Source: a virus
Taxonomy: Duplodnaviria; Caudoviricetes
Reading direction: 5' to 3' (one strand)
Virus record (IMG/VR): IMGVR_UViG_3300021255_002694
Length of the DNA stretch: 64,000 nucleotides
Of the stretch, positions 41,278 to 55,993 are shown piece by piece. Made by a program: the position numbers and the translations under genes. The notes beneath the pieces are model-generated. The model saw only the letters and a list, made by a program, of their open reading frames with translations. It was not told the origin of the DNA and made no database searches. How positions within the stretch are numbered: position 1 is the first letter of the stretch; every line of letters starts with the position of its first letter.

Positions 41278-42432
41278 ATGTCAGAGATAGAGTCATTATT
41301 CAAAGAATTTAATAAAAAGTATAAATCAGAACTTTTTACTATTGGAACAGTTGTGCATAACTGTTCAAGAATACCATTTAGTTCACCTAGAGCAAATTAT
41401 ATGCTATACGGCGGCATTCCAAGAGGACGTATTACAGAGTTCGCCGGAGAAGAAGGTTCTGGAAAGACAACAACCGCTCTTGATATTACAGCAAATGCAC
41501 AAAAGCTGTTTAAGGAAGAATGGGAAGATCAGATTCGTGATCTGGAATCACGCGAAAAATTAACTAAGGAACAGACCGCATATCTTGTAAAACTTAGACA
41601 GGACGGACCTAAGAAAGCACTTTGGATTGATTGTGAAAATACGTTTGATGATGAGTGGTCTACAAAACTAGGTGTTGTTGTAGATGAGTTGTGTGTCATG
41701 TCACCTGAATCTCAGAGTGCAGAAGAAATATTTGATATGGTTACACAGATTGTTCAAACAGGTGAAATTGGGCTTGTTGTTATTGATAGTTTAGGTATGA
41801 TGGTTTCTCAGCAAGAAATGGAGAAAGATATTGAGGAATCTACATATGGCGGAATTTCAAGAGCATTGACCAAATTTTCAAAGAAGATTGAACTTGTTTG
41901 TGCAAAAACTAATTGCGCATTGATCGGAATTAACCAAGTTAGAGATAATCTGAATGCCGGATACGGCGGTCCAGCATATACTACTCCTGGTGGTAAGTGT
42001 TGGAAGCATGTATGTTCTGTTCGTCTTATGTTTAGACAGGGTACTCCATTTGATGATAAGTTTAAGGATGTTAAGAAATCGTGTGAGAATCCCTATGGTC
42101 ACAGAGTTCTTATTTCAGTTCAAAAGACAAAGGTTTGTAAGCCTGACAGAAAAACAGGTTTTTATACGCTTACATATGATAATGGAATTGAACCGTTTGT
42201 TGACATTATTGATATTGCTATCAACCGAGATATTATTCATCAAGCCGGAGCATGGTTTACATTCATTGATATTGATAATGATGGTGAAGTTGTATGCCGC
42301 GAAGATGAAGATGGCAATATGTCAGAAGTTAAAGTCCAAGGTCAGGCTAGCCTGATCCCATTTTTACAAGATGAAGCAAATAAGGATATTTGTGACATGG
42401 TTAAGAAATATGTAAATAGATTTGTGTCATGA
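41278..42432 (+). CDS. recA: RecA recombinase
   Basis: GGIPRGRITE..G.EGSGKTT, ID.E, VIDSL, INQ.R, TPGG and AGAWF motifs. Confidence 0.95.
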   Translation: MSEIESLFKEFNKKYKSELFTIGTVVHNCSRIPFSSPRANYMLYGGIPRGRITEFAGEEGSGKTTTALDITANAQKLFKEEWEDQIRDLESREKLTKEQTAYLVKLRQDGPKKALWIDCENTFDDEWSTKLGVVVDELCVMSPESQSAEEIFDMVTQIVQTGEIGLVVIDSLGMMVSQQEMEKDIEESTYGGISRALTKFSKKIELVCAKTNCALIGINQVRDNLNAGYGGPAYTTPGGKCWKHVCSVRLMFRQGTPFDDKFKDVKKSCENPYGHRVLISVQKTKVCKPDRKTGFYTLTYDNGIEPFVDIIDIAINRDIIHQAGAWFTFIDIDNDGEVVCREDEDGNMSEVKVQGQASLIPFLQDEANKDICDMVKKYVNRFVS

Positions 42433-42442
42433 GGTAATTAAA

Positions 42443-44155
42443 ATGGAACTTAGTAAACAGCAGAGAGAAATTGTTGATTCCAAAAGTAAGAAAATAATTG
42501 TTGATGCTGGTTCTGGTTCTGGTAAAACACGAGTTCTAACAGAGAGAGTTAGAAAGTTACTCAGCAGCGGAGTAAACCCATACTCCGTTGTTGTGATAAC
42601 TTTCACAAACATGGCAGCTAATGAGTTGTATGACAGATTGTCAGATGTTAAAAACTCGGATAAATGCTTTATTGGAACAATACATGCATATGCTCACAAG
42701 CTATTAAAGAAATCAGGATATGATTTTGATATATTTTCTGAATACTATCAGACTTTATACATGACAGAGTTGTTAAAGAAATATGGATACTATGCAACCG
42801 TTGATGACTATAATTTATTCTTAAAATATGATAAAATGATTGCATCAGGAAAAATGCAAAAATCTGATCTAAGAAACAAATTCACTGATTACAAAGTATA
42901 TGATGAACTAATGGCACTTCTCGGCAGAGTAAAGCGATCATCATATAAAGAAACGGTTGTTACAATGTGCAAAGAAAACAATGTAATAACTTTTGATGAA
43001 CTAATTGATTTAGCAACAAAGTATTTTAAGGACAGTAACACGAAATTAGAATATCTTTTTGTTGATGAACTTCAAGATATTGGTTATCTTGAATATAACT
43101 TCTTGCTTAGTTTGAATGCTGAAAACTACTTCTTTATCGGTGACGATTATCAATGTCAACCAGCCGGAACAAAGGTGAATATTGTTTGTCATCCAAATAC
43201 AGACATATCCGAAGTAAAGGTTGGAGATTGGATTCAGTCAGCAGAAAGAACATCTGATGGCAAGTTTTGTCATACAAATCTAATGAAGAGAGTTATCAAT
43301 GTTCAAAAGAGCATTTCACCAGAGATATATACTGTCAAAACTATTGACGGTAGAACATCATCATATACACCAAATCATAGATGTGTTGTTGGTGTATTTG
43401 ATAAAGAAACATGCAATATCCATATTGAAGAAGTGCTTGCAAAGAATCTGAATAAGTATATGTACGCTATTGTTATAAAGAATGATAGGTACATGTTTGA
43501 TCGGATTGTAAGTATAGATCATGTTGAAAAAGATACTGATGTTTACTGCCTAGAGGTTGATGATGGATTATATTTTGCAGACGGTATGCTTACACACAAC
43601 AGCATCTTTTCATTTAAAGGTGGAGATGTAAATATTTTCCTATCTTTAATGCATAATGAAGAGTGGCAACCATATTTTCTTACTGAGAACTACAGAACAG
43701 CAAGATCAATTTTAATGTATGCAAATTCCATTGTTCAGAATGCAGATGATATAATTAAAAAAGATGTTGAGTTCAAGAATGAAAATGTTGGAAGCCTTGA
43801 ATTTAACACAAAGTCACAGCTTGAAAAATTCTTATCTGACCTGAATCCAAATGATGATTGGTTTATTCTAACACGATCAAATAAGGAAATGAGCGCGATT
43901 GATTTAATTTTAAAGAAGTTGAATAAAGAACACTACTGCTTTAAGCAATCTACAACAGCACCTAAAAAGATCAATGAGATATTATCGAAGCCGTGTATAA
44001 AGGTTATGACAATACATGCATCTAAAGGTCTTGAATGTGATAATGTTGCACTGTATGGAAAACTGCCTGTAAAGGGAAAAGGTCAATCGGAAGAACTAAA
44101 AGTTTATTATGTCGGTATAACAAGATCAAAAGATAGATGTGTTATTTTTGTGTGA
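42443..44155 (+). CDS. UvrD/PcrA-family helicase containing a mini-intein
   Basis: AGSGSGKT, ITFTN.AA, VDELQD, IGDDYQ|SIFSF.G, LTENYR, MTIHASKGLE and YVGITR motifs. Confidence 0.92.
   Translation: MELSKQQREIVDSKSKKIIVDAGSGSGKTRVLTERVRKLLSSGVNPYSVVVITFTNMAANELYDRLSDVKNSDKCFIGTIHAYAHKLLKKSGYDFDIFSEYYQTLYMTELLKKYGYYATVDDYNLFLKYDKMIASGKMQKSDLRNKFTDYKVYDELMALLGRVKRSSYKETVVTMCKENNVITFDELIDLATKYFKDSNTKLEYLFVDELQDIGYLEYNFLLSLNAENYFFIGDDYQCQPAGTKVNIVCHPNTDISEVKVGDWIQSAERTSDGKFCHTNLMKRVINVQKSISPEIYTVKTIDGRTSSYTPNHRCVVGVFDKETCNIHIEEVLAKNLNKYMYAIVIKNDRYMFDRIVSIDHVEKDTDVYCLEVDDGLYFADGMLTHNSIFSFKGGDVNIFLSLMHNEEWQPYFLTENYRTARSILMYANSIVQNADDIIKKDVEFKNENVGSLEFNTKSQLEKFLSDLNPNDDWFILTRSNKEMSAIDLILKKLNKEHYCFKQSTTAPKKINEILSKPCIKVMTIHASKGLECDNVALYGKLPVKGKGQSEELKVYYVGITRSKDRCVIFV
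43154..43600 (+). mobile_element. Mini-intein (149 aa, no endonuclease) in UvrD
   Basis: Starts CQPAGT, block B TPNH, ends VYCLEV....YFADGMLTHN followed by +1 Ser; it splits helicase motif III GD..QSI. Confidence 0.92.
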
Positions 44156-45375: not shown

Positions 45376-45618
45376 ATGGTAATGGTTGTCTCCATACTCG
45401 GTGCTTTATGTAGTCTTGGTGGAAATATTTTAATTATGCTGAAAAAGAAATCCGGTTGGATTGTATGGGTTCTCGGCAACTTATTTTGGATCATTTACAA
45501 TTTTATGTCAAAACCTAATTTACCGATGATAGTAATGTACCTAGTCTACATTGTTATAAATATACTCGGATATTGTAAATGGTGTGATAAAGAAGATAAG
45601 ACAAAGATTGAAATGTAA
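45376..45618 (+). CDS. Small 3-TM membrane protein, PnuC/SemiSWEET-like
   Basis: Three hydrophobic segments; GW..W...N..W and Y...N..GY..W patterns resemble half of PnuC. Confidence 0.6.
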   Translation: MVMVVSILGALCSLGGNILIMLKKKSGWIVWVLGNLFWIIYNFMSKPNLPMIVMYLVYIVINILGYCKWCDKEDKTKIEM

Positions 45619-46381: not shown

Positions 46382-46822
46382 ATGAGAAAGAATTGCAAGA
46401 CGTTTGAACAGTGGGCGGATTCACAATATAGTGAATATATAGGAGTTCGGGATAAGGAGTCCAGTCGCCTTAGAGATCATCTTACAGTTTCAGATGATAA
46501 GTTTGTAGAGGTTGCTATTTACAGCACAAGGACAAAGAAAATCGGAATTGCAAGGTGTCATGAGGATACATCTCAGATTTATATTGGCTATGCTGTTGCA
46601 TGGGCAAGATATAAGGGAGAGGCTATTCCTGAAATCCCAAACTACGAAGCTGTAAAGAATCTTGCAAATGGCGATCGGTTTGAATATCTTGGAAAAATGT
46701 ATGTTGCGGATTCTCAGTGTGATTTTAACAGCAACCTTAGATATTGTCTTGCAGTAAGAAAAAGTGATGAGAAACGAAAGATAACCACATTCGACAAAAA
46801 TTTGATTGTTGTGAAGCTGTAA
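46382..46822 (+). CDS. Hypothetical protein with a G.A.C..D....G..VA..R motif
   Basis: GAGGT RBS; motif shared with 51340-51756. Confidence 0.6.
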   Translation: MRKNCKTFEQWADSQYSEYIGVRDKESSRLRDHLTVSDDKFVEVAIYSTRTKKIGIARCHEDTSQIYIGYAVAWARYKGEAIPEIPNYEAVKNLANGDRFEYLGKMYVADSQCDFNSNLRYCLAVRKSDEKRKITTFDKNLIVVKL

Positions 46823-46838
46823 AAATTAAAAAAAAAAT

Positions 46839-46909
46839 AGGAAGTTAGTTAAGTGGTAGAACGGCAGTCTCCAAAACTGCATACAGAGGTTCGATTCCTC
46901 TACTTCCTG
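46839..46909 (+). tRNA. tRNA-Trp(CCA)
   Basis: AGGAAGT/ACTTCCT acceptor, GCAGT-CTCCAAA-ACTGC anticodon arm, TTCGATT T loop. Confidence 0.9.
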
Positions 46910-46916
46910 TTCATAC

Positions 46917-46989
46917 GTGCCTGTAGCTCAGTTGGTAGAGCAACGCCCTTTTAAGGCGAAGGTCATGGATTCGAGTTCCATCAGGCACA
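46917..46989 (+). tRNA. tRNA-Lys(TTT)
   Basis: GTGCCTG/CAGGCAC acceptor; CGCC-CTTTTAA-GGCG anticodon arm. Confidence 0.9.
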
Positions 46990-47048
46990 CTCATTGACAT
47001 TTATATAGGTAAGACACTTTAATGAACTGACAAAAGCATTTTAATTAT

Positions 47049-47136
47049 TTGACATTTTCTAACCTCACTTTCTATAAAGAACCAAATCCTGATCAGGTTC
47101 TAGTCGAAATAGTTTTCGATTTGTTTGAGATCAGGA
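47049..47136 (+). ncRNA. Antisense-segment + scaffold RNA, copy A
   Basis: TTGACATTTTCTAACCTCACTTTC, then AAAGAACC / stem TCCTGATC / AGGTTCT / hairpin / TGTTTGA / GATCAGGA. Confidence 0.65.
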
Positions 47137-47173
47137 ATCATAGATTTTATGAAAAAAAAATTCAAAAAACCAC

Positions 47174-47202
47174 TTGACAAAATTAAAAAATTGTGATATA
47201 CT
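47174..47202 (+). promoter_or_regulatory. sigmaA-type promoter driving the ncRNA/tRNA cluster
   Basis: TTGACA-17-TATACT with TG extension and an A-tract UP element. Confidence 0.88.
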
Positions 47203-47208
47203 ATATAT

Positions 47209-47295
47209 GTAATTGACATAGAATTACTCCTATTGGCAAAAAACCATTACAGCTAGGTTTCAATAAGTGCAAGTTATTGTTTTTGAAGCTGTTAA
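47209..47295 (+). ncRNA. Antisense-segment + scaffold RNA, copy B
   Basis: TTGACATAGAATTACTCCT, then CAAAAAACC / ACAGCT / AGGTTT / CAATAA..TTATTG / TTTTTGA / AGCTGT. Confidence 0.65.
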
Positions 47296-47404
47296 GCATT
47301 TAGTGAATTACACTACCAAAAACGGAAAGTATTGTTAGTGATTCAAAAAAAAACCAAAGCAACTAGGTTTCAGATAATTTCACATTCTGTTTTTGAAGTT
47401 GCTT
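47296..47404 (+). ncRNA. Scaffold RNA, copy C (variable 5' segment has no clear anti-SD)
   Basis: CAAAAAAAAACC / AAGCAACT / AGGTTT / CAGA..TCTG / TTTTTGA / AGTTGCTT. Confidence 0.6.
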
Positions 47405-47604
47405 ATATTCGAGTGCTTGAAACAGGAGTGGGGTAATCCATTTAAGGCATATGGCATGTACAGTAACCATTAGAGTTCTAGGAAACTCTTTTGGAGCTGA
47501 TTGCATGTATCGTCACAGGAGATGACTCAGATGTGTTTGATTTCCTAGAATCACACATACCACGATTCAAGTAGTGGCACTCCTGTTTCAAACACTTGAG
47601 TATA
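47404..47604 (+). ncRNA. tRNA-like kissing-loop RNA 1
   Basis: ~27-bp closing stem, a T-arm-like CCAC-GATTCAAGTA-GTGG, and complementary hairpin loops CTAGGA (47478) and TCCTAG (47543). Confidence 0.65.
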
Positions 47605-47605
47605 T

Positions 47606-47677
47606 TCCCCTATAGTTCAGTTGGTAGAATGTGGGACTGTTAATCCTAAGACACTGGTTCAAGTCCAGTTGGGGGAG
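47606..47677 (+). tRNA. tRNA-Asn(GTT)
   Basis: Cloverleaf; anticodon loop CTGTTAA. Confidence 0.9.
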
Positions 47678-47685
47678 TTCATTAT

Positions 47686-47759
47686 GGTTCGGTAGTTCAG
47701 TTGGTTAGAATGCTTGCCTGTCACGCAAGAGGTCGTGGGTTCGATCCCCATCCGAATCG
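47686..47759 (+). tRNA. tRNA-Asp(GTC)
   Basis: Cloverleaf; CTTGC-CTGTCAC-GCAAG. Confidence 0.92.
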
Positions 47760-47765
47760 CTCAAA

Positions 47766-47923
47766 TCACATGGCAGCAAAAATCTTGGTTGAAACAAATG
47801 AATGAGTGGCTATAGGTGATAATATGTAGATGAAAATGCTCACACCTTACCATATGCACCATAGAACCGATTGAGAATAGGGTGTAAAAGCCTTGACTAA
47901 AAGTTTAATGCTCATTGTGTGAT
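47766..47923 (+). ncRNA. Unknown structured RNA
   Basis: ATCACAT/GTGTGAT closing stem, CTATAGGTG/CACCATAG stem, ACACCT/GGGTGT pseudoknot. Confidence 0.45.
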
Positions 47924-47963
47924 CGCCTAAATAAAGCTGGGAATAGGGCGAAATTAAAAAAAT

Positions 47964-48110
47964 CACCTAGTTTCGGTGCAACACTTATCACGGTGCATCG
48001 TTGGTAAGTGTCAAGTGGTATCCGAATATACAAACCGGATGATATTACAGAGGAATGCACTTCTTTGTAGTATTTGAAAGTCGTTGAGGGTTCGATTCCC
48101 TCCTAGGTGT
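47964..48110 (+). ncRNA. tRNA-like kissing-loop RNA 2
   Basis: Perfect 7-bp acceptor CACCTAG/CTAGGTG, canonical T arm GAGGG-TTCGATT-CCCTC, and complementary loops GTGCAT (47993) and ATGCAC (48055). Confidence 0.7.
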
Positions 48111-48207
48111 TTAAAATAAAAGGGAGTTAAGTCGTGGCGGCTTGAGCCTGTTTTAAGGTTCGGGGTGTACCGTACCACGCTAGCCCAAAGTCCATAAACA
48201 CCCATAT

Positions 48208-48294
48208 GCTGGTGTGGTGAAATTGGAAGACACAGCGTGCTTAAACCGCGCTTCCGGATGCGGAGTATGGGTTCAAGTCCCATCACCAGTACCA
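48208..48294 (+). tRNA. tRNA-Leu(TAA)
   Basis: Long variable arm, loop CTTAAAC, encoded CCA. Confidence 0.88.
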
Positions 48295-48320
48295 ATATAT
48301 TAAAGCAAAATTTATTTAAT

Positions 48321-48410
48321 GGCAGCGTGGCAGAGTCCGGCTTAATGCACCAGTCTTGAAAACTGGCGTTCCGAAAGGGACCGTTGGTCCGAATCCAACC
48401 GCTGTCGCCA
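48321..48410 (+). tRNA. tRNA-Ser(TGA)
   Basis: CCAGT-CTTGAAA-ACTGG, long variable arm, encoded CCA; the T loop is TCCGAAT. Confidence 0.9.
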
Positions 48411-48412
48411 AT

Positions 48413-48485
48413 GCTGATATAACTCAACTGGCAGAGTAGTGGTTTTGTAAACCACAAGTTGTGGGTTCAAGTCCCTCTATCAGCT
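48413..48485 (+). tRNA. tRNA-Thr(TGT)
   Basis: GTGGT-TTTGTAA-ACCAC. Confidence 0.9.
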
Positions 48486-48506
48486 TCAAAAATTTACAGT
48501 AAAGGC

Positions 48507-48535
48507 TTGACAAAAACAGAATTTTATGCTATAAT
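48507..48535 (+). promoter_or_regulatory. sigmaA-type promoter
   Basis: TTGACA-17-TATAAT with TG extension (perfect consensus). Confidence 0.9.
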
Positions 48536-48541
48536 ATTTGT

Positions 48542-48630
48542 ATGACATACTTTATCAACTCTTTTGAATCAAAAAACATGCAGTGATGTTTCTATGGATA
48601 TGATTTATGTCTATAGTTTTAGTAACTACA
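48542..48630 (+). ncRNA. Antisense-segment + scaffold RNA, copy D (divergent)
   Basis: ATGACATACTTTATCAACTCTTT, then CAAAAAACAT / GCAGT / ATGTTT / CTATGGA..TCTATAG / TTTTAG / ACTAC. Confidence 0.55.
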
Positions 48631-48637
48631 AAATTAA

Positions 48638-48711
48638 CGGAGTGTGGCTCAGTTTGGTAGATCGCCTGGTTTGGGACCAGGATGCCGCAGGTTCAAGTCC
48701 TGTCACTCCGA
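48638..48711 (+). tRNA. tRNA-Pro(TGG)
   Basis: CCTGG-TTTGGGA-CCAGG. Confidence 0.92.
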
Positions 48712-48718
48712 TTTAACT

Positions 48719-48794
48719 GGAAGGGTAGCTCAGACGGTTAGCAAGCAGCGGTCTTATAAACCGCAGGTCGTGGGTTCGAGTCCCACCTCTTCCA
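48719..48794 (+). tRNA. tRNA-Ile(TAT)
   Basis: GCGGT-CTTATAA-ACCGC anticodon arm, G1-C72, A73. Confidence 0.85.
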
Positions 48795-48888
48795 TTCATG
48801 CTCTACGGAGCGTAATTGATCTTCTGCTATACTGATCAAATCTAATACATCATCACGAAGGCAGAGTAGTGGTGATGTAATTATGAAT
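48794..48888 (+). ncRNA. Small kissing-loop RNA 3
   Basis: Three hairpins inside an ATTCAT/ATGAAT stem; loops TTCTGCT and GGCAGAG are complementary. Confidence 0.55.
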
Positions 48889-48928
48889 AACATTATACTT
48901 GCTTTAATTGTAAGTAAATCATGTTTTT

Positions 48929-49015
<87 letters not shown>

Positions 49016-49019
49016 GTTT

Positions 49020-49168
49020 AGTCATAGGACCGTTGGAGGCTACGATTTACCGATGCAGTCCAGTCAAGGTAATCCCCTAAATCTACACAGGGAACAGAGG
49101 GTATGCAAACGGTGTGTTACTCTAGCAGTAGAAAACATAGCACCGTGACTGATAGGAGAGACTATCAC
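49020..49168 (+). ncRNA. Unknown pseudoknotted RNA
   Basis: AGTCA/TGACT closing stem; ACCGTT/AACGGT, TTACC/GGTAA and TCTAC/GTAGA crossing pairings. Confidence 0.45.
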
Positions 49169-49176
49169 TTATATAT

Positions 49177-49314
49177 GCAGGAATCGTCTAAATGTGGTTG
49201 CGACCAAAAAGAAAGAGTTTGCATTATTCCTAGGTAAGTGATGTGAACTTTAGTAATCCGTAGGACACGAACTGATCATTCGGATGTAGGAGTAGCGACC
49301 TGCTTCCTGCACCA
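49177..49314 (+). tRNA. Remodelled tRNA-Ile(GAT)-like RNA with a ~65-nt D-loop insertion
   Basis: GCAGGAA/TTCCTGC-ACCA acceptor, CGAA-CTGATCA-TTCG anticodon arm, non-canonical T loop AGTAGCGA, and two hairpins inserted in the D loop. Confidence 0.65.
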
Positions 49315-49318
49315 ATAT

Positions 49319-49390
49319 GGCTCTTTCGTCAAGTGGTTAAGACCTCTGTCCGCAAAGCAGATGTCGCTGGTTCAAATCCGGCAAGAGCCT
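49319..49390 (+). tRNA. tRNA-Cys(GCA), with C at position 33
   Basis: TCTGT-CCGCAAA-GCAGA; U73. Confidence 0.85.
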
Positions 49391-49395
49391 TATAT

Positions 49396-49660
49396 GCCCA
49401 AGCACCAGTCCTGAAAAGCACGGTTTGTGTAGCACACAAATGTCAGATGCATAAAGTCAGGTTAAAGTTGAAATTCGCTTGTGCAAAGAATACGGAACTT
49501 CACCGTAGGAGAACAGGTAGACGTACCCAAGAGTAAGTTGCAAGGGCTTAGAACTCTTAGCACGTAGCGTCAACGGAGTCCGGAATCAGGTTAGGATGGT
49601 TTCTTTGAAATATATGCACCGATAAATGTGGTGTCCTGATGAATGACGTAAAAAACCATT
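49396..49660 (+). ncRNA. One or two unknown highly paired RNAs
   Basis: GCCC/GGGC, CCTGA/TCAGG, TACGG/CCGTA and AAGAGT/ACTCTT; then CGTCA/TGACG, ATCAGG/CCTGAT and ATGGTTT/AAACCAT. Confidence 0.5.
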
Positions 49661-49662
49661 TT

Positions 49663-49737
49663 GCAGATGTAGTTTAATGGCTAGAACCTGTGACTTCCAC
49701 TCACAAGACGGGGGTTCGATTCCCCTCATCTGCTCCA
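49663..49737 (+). tRNA. tRNA-Gly(TCC)
   Basis: TGTGA-CTTCCAC-TCACA; TCCA end. Confidence 0.92.
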
Positions 49738-49743
49738 TTATTT

Positions 49744-49815
49744 GCCCCATTAGTTCATCGGACAGAATAAATCCCTTCTAAGGATCAGAGCGCGGTTCAA
49801 TTCCGTGATGGGGTG
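49744..49815 (+). tRNA. tRNA-Arg(TCT)
   Basis: ATCC-CTTCTAA-GGAT anticodon arm. Confidence 0.88.
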
Positions 49816-49978
49816 TCAAAACGCATCGAAATATCTGAATACCATAGCAACATGGAAACAGATAGACAAAATTTTATTTTTGTTCGTTCCCCGATTAGAT
49901 GTGTTTCAATTAAATAGGGAAAACTGCACATATAAGTTGCATTATACATGAAAGTGCAGATATATAAAGGAGATAAAC

Positions 49979-50317
49979 ATGAAATCAGTGCTTATTGTGA
50001 TCATAGCAATGTATCTTGTTTTTGCTATAACTGATGTAATTTGTTGTCCGATTCTATATCAGAAAGTGTTTTATAGAGTATGCAAGGATTCATTCAATGA
50101 TGATCAAGATGCATCGGTGGTTTCAAGAAAACTTGCTAGAGAATTTACATTTCGTTTTGCTTTTGTTCCACTTGCAAATATAGCAATTTTCATATTTTCA
50201 TTTTTAGACAATGATATTTTATGTGAACTTGAAATGTTTACATATAATATGTTTATGGAAGATGAAGATGCTAAATATGCACTTGCAGAGGAATTGAAAG
50301 AAATTAAGAAAGATTAA
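49979..50317 (+). CDS. Hypothetical membrane protein inside the tRNA cluster
   Basis: AAGGAG RBS; two hydrophobic segments. Confidence 0.65.
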   Translation: MKSVLIVIIAMYLVFAITDVICCPILYQKVFYRVCKDSFNDDQDASVVSRKLAREFTFRFAFVPLANIAIFIFSFLDNDILCELEMFTYNMFMEDEDAKYALAEELKEIKKD

Positions 50318-50321
50318 ATAC

Positions 50322-50403
50322 GGGAGTGTCGCCTAGTGGCAATGGCATCTGACTGTAAATCAGACGGTTTTATCCTTCGTTGGTTCAAGTCCAACCACTC
50401 CCA
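50322..50403 (+). tRNA. tRNA-Tyr(GTA)
   Basis: TCTGA-CTGTAAA-TCAGA; long variable arm. Confidence 0.92.
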
Positions 50404-50413
50404 TTATCTATAA

Positions 50414-50497
50414 TGCCGTGTCGCCAAGTGGAAAGGCAGCGGACTTTGACTCCGCCAGCATTTATGCTTTACGTTGGTTCAAATCCAGCCACGGCAA
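50414..50497 (+). tRNA. tRNA-Gln(TTG) with a long variable arm
   Basis: U1-A72, GCGGA-CTTTGAC-TCCGC, extra arm AGCAT-TT-ATGCT. Confidence 0.85.
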
Positions 50498-50504
50498 TTC
50501 AATA

Positions 50505-50579
50505 GGTCCTATCGTCTAGTCTGGTCTAGGACGAGAGATTTTCATTCTCTAAACATCGGTTCAAATCCGGTTAGGATCA
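50505..50579 (+). tRNA. tRNA-Glu(TTC)
   Basis: AGAGA-TTTTCAT-TCTCT. Confidence 0.9.
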
Positions 50580-52951: not shown

Positions 52952-55900
52952 ATGTCAGTACCATATCAAATAGACGGGATTTCCGGTGATGGAACAGAAT
53001 CAAGCCCATACCTAGTTCACAATATAGATGAAATATTGTCATGTATAGCTGTCACTGATGCATATGTCAAGCTAGTATCGGATATTTATTGTAAAAATGA
53101 TAAAAAGTATAAAAATACAGTTGCATTTAAGTTTGATGTTCAATGTAAAAAATTTTATGCTGATGAGGCAAAATACATATATGGTTTGAAAATATCTGGT
53201 GGATCATTGAAGTATGGTGCATTTATGTCGGCGGTAGCTAATAGTGAAATAGAAAACATACATTTTATTGGTACAATATTTTATAGACAGTATATAGATA
53301 CAGAAACACAGGCTGGATACAATGATTATGATTTTATGTTTGATGATACAACTACAGTTAGGAATTGTACGTTTCAACTGAATGTTTTTCCACACGCATA
53401 CTGTAGAGCTACCGGATTGATAAAAGGTGGAATCGTAGAAAGATGTGCCTTTGTATATAAGTATACAGACTATGTTAAAACATATAATTCTTATCGTTCA
53501 AGTGTGCTGAACGTAACAGGTAATGGTATAAATCCTAAAAAGGCTTCCTATTGTTATTTTTATATTGATGGATATACTTTCAGGTGGCGTGAGGGATATT
53601 CAATGTTCAAGCGTGTTGATCATAGTGCAATATATGTAAACAACATGCATATAATAGAACTGCATAATACAACAAGTGAATCAATATATGGTAATGATAC
53701 AAGTGATTCATCGAACCTGATATTTTGGAATATTTCATATTTTGCTCCTATTGGTATGACACAGTACGAAAATGCAACTTTATATTTCGGAGCTTCGTCA
53801 AAATCTCTTGTGGACATATCATTTGATGATTTTGCATACAGAAACAGAATACATGAATCTATAAGCAAACCATGTGTAAGATCAACAATTTCAGATATGA
53901 GAAATCCATCTTATCTATCTACACAAAGCATGATTAGTTCATATACTTTAGTTGAAAATGGATTTGATTCAGATGTATGGTATTTCAGAGATAACTTCAT
54001 AATGCCTATACCAGTTGGTGTATTATATGTTGAACCAACATATGAGTATGCCTATGAAGATTTTACAACTATCGGTAAAGCAACGTGCGGATTCTATGCA
54101 CCGATAGATACAATAAGACCAATGGGAGCATTTGCACAATCACAAGTAGAAAGTATATCAATACCAATATATACAACAGAACTTGGTAGATTTACATTTT
54201 ATGGATCAAGTCTCAACAATGTGAGAATATCTCCTGATTGTTATTGGTATGATCAAACTTTCCCTGATGATGTTGAATTTGATTTCTATTATAGCGTAAT
54301 ACTGTTACCACAGACAACATATGAGTTTAATATTTCTGATAATGCTGTATTACCTGATGCGGATCAGATAGAAATAGAAGTGACTGACGGCAATAGCGTA
54401 ATTAGAAGTCTTAGTAATTTTGAATATCAAAATTTTTACACAGACATACCTGTTAGAAATAGCACAGGAAGTGTCTACTACTATTTCAACAATAGACAAA
54501 ATAGTATACACACAGATTTCATATATACTGTGTATGGTGATAATTTATTTAGTGGTTCATTTCAACAAGGGTTAATTGATCAAAGTGGTAACATTCAAAG
54601 TGACTATAAAACAATAACATCTGATAAATGTCGTGTAGGTTCTGGAAATTATTTTTGTAGTGTACTTCCGAGAACATCTGAACTTCAAGTACATAAGTAT
54701 ATTCCACCGATTACACAAATTGCATCTACAGCATCGGTTGTTCCGTCAAGTATGTCTGTATCAACTGCAACACAGCATGAAACAGGACAATTACCACTAT
54801 CAATTCTAACTGATAATGAAACAATAGATGATTATACTGTGTATGGAAATGTTAATGCTTCAAGTCTTGATGTATCACCTGAATCACCAGCAACACTGTC
54901 ATATCTATCTAGGAATATTGTAAATGTGTTCCCAAGTTCACCAAAGCAGAATACTACATCTAACGGAATAACATTTGAAAGTAATGGTTTTGGTGGATAT
55001 CATATAGTAGGTAAGGCAACATCATCTGTTCAGTTTGTAGCAAATTTATCCGGTTCTGTAACATTTCCAAAATCAATAAATAACGGCGGAACAGGATGTC
55101 TATATTTTGGAAATACAACATCTGTTGGTGGTATAACAGTAAGATTTATGAATGGATCATCATCGCAGGATTATTGGAACTCTGGCTATATAACAGGTAT
55201 TCCGCATGTAACACAAAATTATGGAACACTAGCAAATAAAACAGTAAACAGACTTAGATTTGAAATCAGTTCTGGATCAACATGCGATATTTGGTTCTAT
55301 ATAATGCTTACAACAGACGGTATTGGAACAAGTGCGAAAAGAGATTTTGCAGTATATGGAAGTAAATTTACAATGAATAGAATAACATCATCAGGAGTAA
55401 ATACATATATACCAACAAATGATTGTGAGATGCTAAAAATACCAAATCACAATATTTCAGATAGTTTAACATATACTGAAAATCAGGTGAGATCAAACGT
55501 AGGAAAATTGGTTTTGACAGGTTCAGATAATATAAACTGGACTGCTGATCAAAATTATTTCTACTGTTCAATATCTGATATAGGTGCAAAGAGTAATTCA
55601 TCAATTTTCTGTACACATTTACTCGAAGTTCAATCTATTTCTGATATGCAGTATGGTAAATGTATGTGTACAGATATACTGATGCTAGGTCTTGTATCAC
55701 AAGATATACAAACCGTAGCTGATCTAAATTCATATCTGCAACAACAGTATACAAACGGTACACCAGTTGTTATACTGTATGAAAAATCACAACAAGAGGT
55801 TTATCAGCAGACCTTTCCGGAGTTTGTTATAACAAAAGAGAAATATTTAGGCTCTGTAAACGGAGATTTTGCAAATACTCCAATTCAATTTAATCTTGAT

Positions 55901-55993
55901 TCTGAGTATAATATAAGATTCTGTATACGTGATAAATCCGGCGATGATATTTCTCCACAAGATATAAGTAACTTCGGATACTACAGACTATAA
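52952..55993 (+). CDS. Large multi-domain adhesin/fibre-like protein, paralog 2
   Basis: Same N-terminal motif; a short BspA-like LRR (GAFAQSQVESISIP...GRFTFYGSSL..V.I); carbohydrate-binding-like modules; L.SYL......GTPV..LY fibre motif. Confidence 0.55.
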   Translation: MSVPYQIDGISGDGTESSPYLVHNIDEILSCIAVTDAYVKLVSDIYCKNDKKYKNTVAFKFDVQCKKFYADEAKYIYGLKISGGSLKYGAFMSAVANSEIENIHFIGTIFYRQYIDTETQAGYNDYDFMFDDTTTVRNCTFQLNVFPHAYCRATGLIKGGIVERCAFVYKYTDYVKTYNSYRSSVLNVTGNGINPKKASYCYFYIDGYTFRWREGYSMFKRVDHSAIYVNNMHIIELHNTTSESIYGNDTSDSSNLIFWNISYFAPIGMTQYENATLYFGASSKSLVDISFDDFAYRNRIHESISKPCVRSTISDMRNPSYLSTQSMISSYTLVENGFDSDVWYFRDNFIMPIPVGVLYVEPTYEYAYEDFTTIGKATCGFYAPIDTIRPMGAFAQSQVESISIPIYTTELGRFTFYGSSLNNVRISPDCYWYDQTFPDDVEFDFYYSVILLPQTTYEFNISDNAVLPDADQIEIEVTDGNSVIRSLSNFEYQNFYTDIPVRNSTGSVYYYFNNRQNSIHTDFIYTVYGDNLFSGSFQQGLIDQSGNIQSDYKTITSDKCRVGSGNYFCSVLPRTSELQVHKYIPPITQIASTASVVPSSMSVSTATQHETGQLPLSILTDNETIDDYTVYGNVNASSLDVSPESPATLSYLSRNIVNVFPSSPKQNTTSNGITFESNGFGGYHIVGKATSSVQFVANLSGSVTFPKSINNGGTGCLYFGNTTSVGGITVRFMNGSSSQDYWNSGYITGIPHVTQNYGTLANKTVNRLRFEISSGSTCDIWFYIMLTTDGIGTSAKRDFAVYGSKFTMNRITSSGVNTYIPTNDCEMLKIPNHNISDSLTYTENQVRSNVGKLVLTGSDNINWTADQNYFYCSISDIGAKSNSSIFCTHLLEVQSISDMQYGKCMCTDILMLGLVSQDIQTVADLNSYLQQQYTNGTPVVILYEKSQQEVYQQTFPEFVITKEKYLGSVNGDFANTPIQFNLDSEYNIRFCIRDKSGDDISPQDISNFGYYRL

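What the first reader, a model, noticed from the sequence alone, without database searches (positions are those of the whole stretch)
47076..47404. The scaffold looks like an ENE-type triple helix / pseudoknot with an upstream A-tract
Seen: the A-tract covaries with the left strand of the internal loop (AGAACC:GGTTCT in A, AAACC:GGTTT in B and C, AAACAT:ATGTTT in D). The right strand is a second U run (TTTTTGA/TGTTTGA/TTTTAG). Known: a U-rich internal loop plus A-tract forms U.A-U triple helices in KSHV PAN and MALAT1 ENEs, where the A-tract is downstream. Inference: a bacterial-virus analogue with reversed topology that stabilises the RNA, blocks exonucleases or presents the guide.
Basis: partly seen in the sequence, partly recalled or inferred. 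Interest (0 to 1): 0.7.

Follow-up and report, generated by a model that had tools for sequence, protein, structure and literature searches.

The report
Conserved pseudoknot clamp in phage tRNA arrays
A giant rumen-type phage and four relatives carry, between their tRNA genes, a small conserved RNA hairpin whose U-rich inner loop is locked by an upstream A-rich stretch into a pseudoknot; this much is supported by compensating mutations, while the proposed ENE-like triple helix is plausible but untested.

Summary
Observation confirmed. Units A-C lie at 47076-47404 and unit D lies outside the given range, at 48571-48627. All four have an A-rich tract complementary to the 5' strand of a U-rich internal loop.

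The window alone gave weak evidence: one compensatory pair, and A and D at noise level with a model built from B and C. I then found six more units in syntenic tRNA arrays of four related IMG/VR jumbo-phage contigs. A model built only from foreign units picks C, B, D and A as its four best hits in the window.

Across all ten units:
- The five core pairs of the pseudoknot helix are Watson-Crick in 50 of 50 cells.
- One pair occurs as C-G, A-U and U-A; another as A-U and G-C.
- Combined shuffle p is about 1e-6.

So the pseudoknot is real (about 0.9).

The triple helix is plausible (about 0.4) but untested. The loop is symmetric, and the second U run sits level with every run of A-U pairs (34 of 36 levels) and never pairs canonically across the loop. 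That allows 3-5 U.A-U triples.

It is not an ENE by membership: the A tract is 5' and internal, and no Rfam family matches.

Five units end 5-13 nt before a tRNA gene and a sixth abuts a tRNA-like RNA, which suggests an RNase P-made 3' end capped by the knot.

The parts
47076..47135 (+). Unit A. A tract AGAACC 47078-83; outer stem 47088-94 with 47129-35; loop 5' strand GGTTCT 47096-101; inner hairpin 47102-21; loop 3' strand TGTTTGA 47122-28.
   Evidence: Sequence; fold (z -3.6); parse (6-bp S1, shuffle p 0.007). It is the fourth-best window hit of the foreign-only model R2 (21.9 bits, E 0.08). It is the only unit with G-C at S1 pair +3.
47238..47292 (+). Unit B. A run 47238-43 plus CC 47244-45 (S1 5' strand AAACC 47241-45); outer stem 47249-54 with 47287-92; GGTTT 47256-60; inner hairpin 47261-79; TTTTTGA 47280-86.
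   Evidence: R2 score 47.8 bits, E 2.7e-7. Compared with C, the stems differ by compensatory changes, while the A tract and both loop strands are identical.
47345..47402 (+). Unit C. A run 47345-53 plus CC 47354-55 (S1 5' strand AAACC 47351-55); outer stem 47359-64 with 47397-402; GGTTT 47366-70; inner hairpin 47371-89; TTTTTGA 47390-96. It ends 1-2 nt before the 200-nt structured RNA at 47404-47604.
   Evidence: R2 score 50.6 bits, E 6.8e-8.
48571..48627 (+). Unit D. A run 48571-76 (S1 5' strand AAACAT 48574-79); weak outer stem 48582-84 with 48625-27; ATGTTT 48586-91; 11-bp inner hairpin 48592-616 with three G.U pairs; TTTTAGTA 48617-24. It ends 10 nt before tRNA-Pro (48638).
   Evidence: R2 score 29.1 bits, E 0.0024. 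The three G.U pairs would be A.C mismatches on the other strand, so the + strand is the RNA strand.
47174..47202 (+). Near-consensus sigma-A-type promoter with extended -10 (TTGACA-17-TATACT). It should start transcription about 30 nt before the A run of unit B.
   Evidence: 11 of 12 matches, TG present. The same layout is seen before foreign units in L163, L164 and L162.
48507..48535 (+). Consensus promoter (TTGACA-17-TATAAT with TG). It should start transcription about 30 nt before the A run of unit D.
   Evidence: 12 of 12 matches, TG present.
48638..48711 (+). tRNA-Pro(TGG), the tRNA that follows unit D. RNase P cleavage at its 5' end would leave unit D near the 3' end of the leader RNA.
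   Evidence: The RNase P step is inferred from general tRNA biology and was not tested.

Best explanation
These are copies of a small, previously undescribed structured RNA module. It lives in the tRNA arrays of one clade of jumbo phages: this roughly 323-kb phage and four IMG/VR relatives.

Each module is a hairpin with three parts:
- an outer stem of 5-7 bp (only 3 bp in unit D);
- a symmetric U-rich internal loop;
- a hypervariable inner hairpin.

An A-rich tract 2-6 nt upstream ends in C plus one variable base. It pairs by Watson-Crick with the 5' strand of the loop over 5-8 bp and so closes an H-type pseudoknot. This step is shown by covariation.

The 3' strand of the loop is a conserved run of 4-6 U (interrupted by one G in unit A), followed by purines and an invariant A. 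It runs parallel to the A tract and level with its A-U pairs. It most likely lies in the major groove and forms 3-5 U.A-U triples. That would make the core a circularly permuted, ENE-like clamp. This step is inferred, at about 0.4.

The module usually sits at the 3' end of a 30-85 nt leader or spacer, often behind a consensus promoter, and 5-13 nt before a tRNA gene. RNase P cleavage of that tRNA would therefore release a roughly 100-nt RNA whose 3' end is capped by the knot. I propose that the knot replaces a terminator hairpin as a block to 3' exonucleases, and perhaps also serves as a protein platform. This step is inferred, at about 0.3.
For: **The family is real.**
- Model R1 (built from B and C) finds units in syntenic tRNA arrays of L162-L165.
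- Model R2, built only from five foreign units, returns C, B, D and A as its top four hits over the 64-kb window: 50.6, 47.8, 29.1 and 21.9 bits, with the next hit at 18.7.

**The stems are real.**
- On the 11-row alignment A10 (the ten units plus one borderline hit), all 9 modelled pairs of the outer and inner stems show changes on both sides.
- 93.5% of cells are paired, and 0 of 500 shuffles reach this.

**The pseudoknot is real.**
- Every unit has 5-8 contiguous Watson-Crick pairs between the tract and its own loop strand. Fisher's combined shuffle p over 8 independent units is 1e-6.
- Anchored table: core pairs -1 to +3 are Watson-Crick in 50 of 50 cells.
- Pair -1 is C-G in six units, A-U in two and U-A in two. 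Pair +3 is A-U in nine and G-C in one.
- Extension pairs appear only where both sides allow them.
- Slide controls reach at most 56%. Permuting the partners equals the observed value in 2 of 20000 trials.
- Both strands are open in the nested ensemble, with an opening cost below 1 kcal/mol in A-C.

**Compatible with a triplex.**
- Loops measure 6x7 to 8x8.
- 34 of 36 levels with a tract-A to loop-U pair have U at the same level in the 3' strand, against 8 of 24 other levels.
- The U run lengthens with the A-U run (3, 4 or 5 pairs).
- The U levels of the two loop strands are always U opposite U, never a Watson-Crick pair, although the stems vary freely.
- The last base of the loop's 3' strand is A in 10 of 10 units.
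- B and C keep the tract and both loop strands identical while the stems and loops diverge.

**Position.**
- Gaps to the next tRNA are 5, 5, 5, 6, 10 and 13 nt in six units, five of them independent; unit C abuts a tRNA-like RNA.
- Consensus promoters lie upstream of several units.

**Precedent.** MALAT1 is cut by RNase P to give a 3' end protected by a triple helix (PMC13170383, abstract).
Against: - There are no structure-probing, expression or end-mapping data.
- The pseudoknot helix is short and thermodynamically marginal. Duplex energies are -2.1 to -6.3 kcal/mol, including the initiation term.
- The match between the two loop strands is equally explained by a U.U-zipped hairpin that alternates with the pseudoknot.
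- In unit A the loop's 3' strand has G at the level of the G-C pair. That gives a poor G.G-C triple (PMC4836648), or else a C-G pair across the loop that competes with the knot.
- Only 3 triples are possible in most units, fewer than in ENEs.
- The 3' end would not be buried in the triplex.
- Units A, B and L162a are not followed by a tRNA.
- In unit A, a TTGACA-18-TATAAA site (47049-47078) could start transcription inside the tract.
- Only five genomes of one clade carry the motif, so lineages are few.
Confidence: 0.45

Rival explanations
1. The pseudoknot forms but there is no triple helix. The module is a two-state or protein-binding element. The U-rich loop zips by U.U pairs in one state, and the A tract invades it in the other. 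Alternatively a phage or host RNA-binding protein reads the conserved single strands. The function would be scaffolding or switching, not passive stabilisation.
For: The U-opposite-U levels and the C-G opposition in unit A fit pairing across the loop. Isolated ENEs are reported to form U.U pairs before the triplex forms (PMC6633196). The pseudoknot helix is energetically marginal. Strict sequence conservation of three single strands is also typical of protein sites.
Against: If the loop's 3' strand were only a linker, it would not need to be U at 34 of 36 levels, nor match the loop's 5' strand in length. No candidate protein was identified. The neighbouring ORFs have no relevant Pfam domain.
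Confidence: 0.3
2. The module acts in cis on the tRNA operon rather than as a released RNA. It might shape the 5' leader for RNase P, keep the leader from mispairing with the tRNA, or modify RNA polymerase for read-through of the highly structured array, in the manner of the put elements of phage HK022.
For: Five units lie 5-13 nt upstream of a tRNA gene, and six lie 30-85 nt downstream of consensus promoters.
Against: Units A, B and L162a do not precede a tRNA. Units A, C, L164b and L162a are not promoter-proximal. No terminators were found that would need to be overcome. Nothing links this fold to RNase P or RNA polymerase.
Confidence: 0.15
3. The module is an RNase III-type processing hairpin, as in early transcripts of phages T7 and SP82. 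The rod of two stems plus internal loop would be the substrate, and the complementarity to the A tract would be secondary.
For: The shape fits: two stems around a symmetric internal loop, about 20-25 levels long, inside a polycistronic phage transcript. The comparison with T7 and SP82 rests on my own knowledge.
Against: This does not explain the covarying pseudoknot helix, which would break the rod. It also does not explain why the loop strands are sequence-conserved.
Confidence: 0.05
4. The module is a ligand-sensing pseudoknot aptamer, in the manner of SAM-II or preQ1-II, which also combine a pseudoknot with U.A-U triples.
For: The general architecture fits, and riboswitch pseudoknots use short U.A-U triplexes (PMC13541005).
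Against: No Rfam riboswitch model matches even at E up to 10. There is no expression platform and no regulated ORF downstream. A single genome carries up to four copies.
Confidence: 0.04

Closest known systems
ENE plus A-rich tract triple helices (KSHV PAN; MALAT1 and MEN-beta/NEAT1 with their RNase P-processed tRNA-like mascRNA/menRNA)
   Same: Both have a hairpin with a symmetric U-rich internal loop and an A-rich strand that pairs by Watson-Crick with one U strand and runs parallel to the other. The local strand polarity is the same as in an ENE. As in MALAT1, a tRNA-type RNase P site lies immediately downstream, so the mature 3' end would sit next to the clamp (PMC6633196; PMC13170383).
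   Different: The A tract is 5' and internal rather than the 3' tail, so the 3' end cannot be buried. The roles of the loop strands are swapped relative to the closing stem, which makes this a circular permutation. Only 3-5 U levels are available. Two C-G pairs form part of the clamp. The host is a bacterial virus. There is no sequence or Rfam similarity. No triplex has been demonstrated.
H-type pseudoknots with short major-groove U.A-U triplexes (telomerase RNA; SAM-II, SAM-V and preQ1-II riboswitches)
   Same: Both have two crossing helices and about three U.A-U triples. preQ1-II likewise has a hairpin embedded in a pseudoknot loop (my own knowledge; list of classes in PMC13541005).
   Different: In those RNAs the U-rich third strand is loop 1, lying in the groove of stem 2. 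Here it is the 3' end of loop 3, lying along stem 1. There is no ligand context, no expression platform and no Rfam match.
Small RNAs made from tRNA-operon spacers (E. coli 3'ETS-leuZ) and the stable non-tRNA RNAs of the phage T4 tRNA cluster (species 1 and 2, rnaC and rnaD)
   Same: All are non-tRNA RNAs encoded inside a tRNA transcription unit and presumably freed by tRNA-processing enzymes. These examples come from my own knowledge.
   Different: None of them is known to carry this pseudoknot module, and T4 RNAC and RNAD are tRNA-shaped. Release and function of the present RNAs have not been shown.

Membership tests
ENE (element for nuclear expression) triple-helix stability elements | Large U-rich internal loop in a stem-loop, with U runs on both strands | tested here: inconclusive
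   The loop is symmetric, 6x7 to 8x8, with 3-5 U-opposite-U levels. The 5' strand has only 3 U in most units.
ENE (element for nuclear expression) triple-helix stability elements | The third strand is the transcript's 3' A-rich tail or poly(A), so the 3' end is sequestered in the triplex (PMC6633196) | tested here: not met
   The tract lies 2-6 nt upstream of the outer stem and is internal to the RNA. No conserved A tract follows the hairpin.
ENE (element for nuclear expression) triple-helix stability elements | Major-groove U.A-U Hoogsteen triples actually form | not testable with these tools
   Only compatibility can be shown: strand polarity, register, and U at 34 of 36 levels.
ENE (element for nuclear expression) triple-helix stability elements | Similarity to a curated RNA family model | tested here: not met
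   Rfam 15 scans at E up to 1 and up to 10 return only tRNAs and far-sub-threshold chance hits.
H-type RNA pseudoknot | Two helices whose strands interleave, each supported by covariation | tested here: met
   Outer stem: 6 of 6 pairs with double changes. Pseudoknot helix: 50 of 50 core cells Watson-Crick, with three pair types at one position and two at another.
H-type RNA pseudoknot | Connecting loops long enough to span the helices | tested here: met
   Loop 1 is 2-6 nt across a 5-7 bp stem. The loop's 3' strand is 7-8 nt across a 5-8 bp helix. This is judged against general pseudoknot geometry from my own knowledge.
Pseudoknot riboswitches (SAM-II, SAM-V, preQ1-I/II/III) | Match to the family model, and position in the 5' UTR of a related gene | tested here: not met
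   No Rfam match. The downstream neighbours are tRNAs, another unit or a promoter.
tRNA-operon spacer-derived small RNAs | Encoded in a leader or spacer of a tRNA transcription unit, next to a processing site | tested here: met
   All ten units lie in tRNA arrays. Five are 5-13 nt before a tRNA and one abuts a tRNA-like RNA.
tRNA-operon spacer-derived small RNAs | Accumulates as a discrete processed RNA with a regulatory target | not testable with these tools
There are no expression data.

The most novel reading that the evidence does not exclude
This would be a bacterial-virus counterpart of the MALAT1/NEAT1 3'-end strategy. RNase P cleavage at the adjacent tRNA would create the 3' end of an abundant leader RNA. 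That end would be guarded by a circularly permuted ENE-like clamp: a pseudoknot plus 3-5 U.A-U triples. It would be the first triple-helix RNA stability element in a prokaryotic system, stabilising small RNAs whose 5' parts carry CU-rich, anti-Shine-Dalgarno-like segments.
Probability: 0.2. Interest if true: 0.8.

Novelty: new variant of a known kind. Interest (0 to 1): 0.6.

Why it matters
If the fold is as proposed, phages independently arrived at the logic used by mammalian MALAT1 and NEAT1. In that logic a tRNA-processing cut makes the RNA end, and a U.A-U clamp beside it protects the RNA. The clamp would have a strand order not seen in known ENEs.

Even without the triplex, this is a new, compact, covariation-supported pseudoknot motif. 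It marks a class of leader and spacer RNAs in jumbo-phage tRNA arrays, regions usually annotated as tRNAs only. It offers a handle for asking what these abundant non-tRNA products do during infection.

The module is about 55 nt and modular: its inner hairpin is freely replaceable. That could make it useful as an RNA-stabilising part in Gram-positive hosts.

Tried and rejected
**Searches for relatives that found nothing useful**
- blastn of 46990-47610 against GenBank phages: no match.
- IMG/VR scans with the single neighbour proteins 46382-46822, 42422-44155 and 52952-55993: no relatives.
- Exact motif patterns in IMG/VR and GTDB contigs: only chance hits without an outer stem.
- Anchor patterns from the neighbouring RNA and from tRNA-Asn: chance hits or nothing.
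- Metagenome scan with the alignment of the 146-aa protein: two distant loci without tRNAs or the motif. The record behind L025 is not held.
- GTDB contigs searched with the same alignment and with the helicase alignment: 12 loci, no motif.
- Whole records G001-G005: no further copies.
- A loose descriptor scan of 81 sources: only the known units stood above shuffle noise.

**Tools unavailable**
- No whole genome is held for this window.

**Methods that failed**
- MAFFT alignments put the A tract out of register, so I counted the pseudoknot on an anchored table by script.
- A model containing only the pseudoknot helix (R3) was too insensitive.

**Ideas dropped**
- CRISPR-like repeats: the phage's system is type I-E according to earlier notes, and the units are about 58 nt and unlike each other in the stems.
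- Minus-strand terminators: poor stems, the U run is not adjacent, and the G.U pairs favour the + strand.
- Minus-strand small ORFs behind the anti-RBS leaders: lengths of 4, 39 and 20 codons are inconsistent.
- Targets for the leaders in this window: GGAG-N4-11-ATGTCA occurs only once elsewhere, inside an ORF.

Full report
**Context.** The window belongs to an uncultured jumbo phage. A neighbouring protein occurs on a contig of 323,500 bp. The promoters are Firmicutes-type. A 16-gene tRNA array spans 46838-50579. Earlier notes of this scan call it a rumen phage with its own type I-E CRISPR system; I did not test that. The finding concerns non-tRNA stretches inside the array.

**Observation.** Four units share one plan:
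- an A-rich tract;
- 2-4 nt of spacer;
- the 5' strand of an outer stem;
- a loop strand, (A/G)(N)GUUU;
- an inner hairpin;
- a U-rich loop strand ending in A;
- the 3' strand of the outer stem.

The tracts AGAACC, AAACC, AAACC and AAACAT are exact complements of GGTTCT, GGTTT, GGTTT and ATGTTT. The second loop strands are TGTTTGA, TTTTTGA, TTTTTGA and TTTTAGTA. Unit D, however, lies at 48571-48627, outside the stated range, and its outer stem is very weak.

**Evidence from the window alone is thin.**
- B and C are duplicates 110 nt apart. Their stems differ by compensatory changes, while the tract and both loop strands are identical.
- A model built from B and C scores D and A at 15.2 and 13.8 bits, among noise hits.
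- On the four-unit alignment the pseudoknot helix is 100% paired but has only one compensatory pair, which 117 of 500 shuffles also reach.
- Shuffling each upstream 24-mer gives p values of 0.02-0.1 per unit.

**Finding relatives.** Searches by DNA, by single proteins and by motif patterns all failed. The UvrD-type helicase 2.9 kb upstream has many homologues. An alignment of 25 of them pulled 80 IMG/VR loci. The four closest are L162-L165, on contigs of 93-207 kb with helicase identity of 54-64%. They carry tRNA arrays in the same place. L164 and L165 even have the MRKNCKTF... protein just upstream.

The B/C model finds six units there. A second model, built only from five foreign units, was run over the whole window with filters off. 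It returns C, B, D and A as its four best hits: 50.6, 47.8, 29.1 and 21.9 bits, with the next hit at 18.7. The family, and the membership of A and D, are therefore established independently of the window. No further copies occur in the five whole records, in the other 76 loci, or in 12 MAG loci. The motif is confined to this clade.

**Nested helices.** On the 11-row alignment, which includes one borderline extra hit, all nine modelled pairs of the outer and inner stems show changes on both sides. 93.5% of cells are paired, 0 of 500 shuffles reach this, and slide controls reach at most 39%. The inner hairpin is hypervariable in sequence and length (10-25 nt). It differs completely between the otherwise near-identical L164a and L165a.

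**Pseudoknot.** MAFFT and the nested models put the tract out of register, so I anchored each unit on the universal C of AAAC and the G of GUUU and tabulated the pairs.
- Pairs -1 to +3 are Watson-Crick in all ten units (50 of 50 cells).
- Pair -1 is C-G in six units, A-U in two (D, L164b) and U-A in two (L164a, L165a).
- Pair +3 is A-U in nine units and G-C in unit A.
- Extra pairs at -2, +4 and +5 appear only where both sides permit, including U-A in L162a and L165a.
- Sliding the partner strand drops pairing to 56% or less.
- Exchanging partners between units equals the observed count in 2 of 20000 permutations.
- Each unit has 5-8 contiguous pairs. Fisher's combined shuffle p over eight independent units is 1e-6 for any position in the 24 upstream bases.
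- Both strands are free in the nested ensemble.

I take the pseudoknot as established at the level comparative analysis allows.

**Triple helix.** The geometry is right. The loop's 3' strand runs parallel to the tract. It leaves one stem and rejoins the other exactly as the Hoogsteen strand of an ENE does, where U1 is the Hoogsteen strand and U2 the duplex strand (PMC6633196). The difference is that the closed and open ends of the hairpin are exchanged.

The sequence pattern fits:
- Loops are symmetric, 6x7 to 8x8.
- U stands at the same level as a tract-A to loop-U pair in 34 of 36 cases, against 8 of 24 at other levels.
- The U run grows with the A-U run (3, 4 or 5 pairs).
- The two loop strands are never Watson-Crick to each other at these levels, although a mutation to A would strengthen a plain hairpin.
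- The last base of the strand is A in 10 of 10 units.

A passive linker would not be so constrained.

Against the triplex:
- The same pattern fits a U.U-zipped hairpin that alternates with the knot.
- Most units allow only three triples.
- Unit A would need G.G-C, which is not among the triples reported with at least 30% of U.A-U stability in MALAT1 (PMC4836648), or it pairs C47100 with G47123 across the loop.
- Nothing here can detect Hoogsteen pairs.

I put the triplex at about 0.4.

**Where the units sit.** Consensus extended -10 promoters lie 30-85 nt upstream of B, D, L163, L164a, L165a and L162b. Units end 5, 5, 5, 6, 10 and 13 nt before tRNA-Lys (three units), tRNA-Met, tRNA-Pro and tRNA-Gln respectively. 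Unit C abuts a 200-nt structured RNA that itself abuts tRNA-Asn. Units A, B and L162a are not followed by a tRNA.

RNase P would thus release RNAs built as 5' leader, then module, then a short tail. Bacterial small RNAs normally end in a terminator hairpin, and these cannot, so a knotted 3' body is a reasonable substitute. The parallel with MALAT1 is close in logic: RNase P makes a 3' end protected by a triple helix (PMC13170383). [quoted passage not shown] This functional step is inference only.

**Comparison and novelty.** No Rfam 15 family matches. A 2026 review of RNA triple helices does not contain the word 'phage' at all (PMC13541005). The module is an H-type pseudoknot by test. It is not an ENE by membership, and it is not a known riboswitch. 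I class it as a new variant of a known kind.

**Caveats.**
- Five genomes of one clade give few independent lineages.
- My anchoring of the tract was chosen with the helix in mind, although the permutation and slide controls use the same anchoring.
- In unit A, a TTGACA-18-TATAAA site (47049-47078) could start transcription inside the tract. The homologous TTGACAT in units B and D lies downstream of their real promoters, so I read it as part of the leader.

Noticed in passing
window 47049-47075, 47209-47237, 48542-48570; L162 13660-13690; L164 13165-13190 and 13330-13355: The leaders just upstream of the A tract carry a CU-rich element (CCTC, CTCC, CCTCCTTT, TCCTTTCTTTC) in about 8 of 10 units. 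L162b has CACCTCCTTT, which from my own knowledge resembles the 3' tail of 16S rRNA. In units A, B and D a TGACAT lies further 5', so the leader is antisense to GGAG-N-ATGTCA. Only one other such site occurs in the window, inside an ORF.
   Followed up: partly
window 47404-47604: A 200-nt RNA with a 27-bp closing stem and several internal hairpins (MFE -77.7 kcal/mol, z -6.7). It is wedged between unit C and tRNA-Asn and has no Rfam match.
   Followed up: partly
window 47100-47219, minus strand: A 39-codon minus-strand ORF (MSITYIVYHNFLILSSGFLNFFFIKS...) starts at the SD-plus-ATG that is antisense to unit B's leader and runs through unit A. It is hydrophobic like a type I toxin. The equivalent ORFs at units A and D are only 4 and 20 codons, so it is probably spurious.
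   Followed up: partly
window 42422-44155: The UvrD-type helicase contains an intein (Hint and Intein_splicing domains at residues ~242-393). Close homologues occur with an intein (570-710 aa) and without one (about 421 aa).
   Followed up: no
L164 14063-14135; L165 15106-15178: In a related phage array, ARAGORN calls a tRNA with anticodon CTA, which would read the amber stop codon. The sister contig has tRNA(ACA) at the matching place. This hints at stop-codon suppression or recoding in relatives.
   Followed up: no
window 45376-45618: An 80-aa ORF matches only the C-terminal part of the nicotinamide mononucleotide transporter family PF04973 (E 1.7e-8). It may be a fragment or a minimal version.
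   Followed up: no
window 47280-47294 and 47390-47401 versus 48478-48492: The TTTTTGAAGCTG and TTTTTGAAGTTG segments of units B and C are complementary to the 3' end and trailer of tRNA-Thr (CAGCTTCAAAAA), with 12-15 nt at 92-93%. This may be chance.
   Followed up: no
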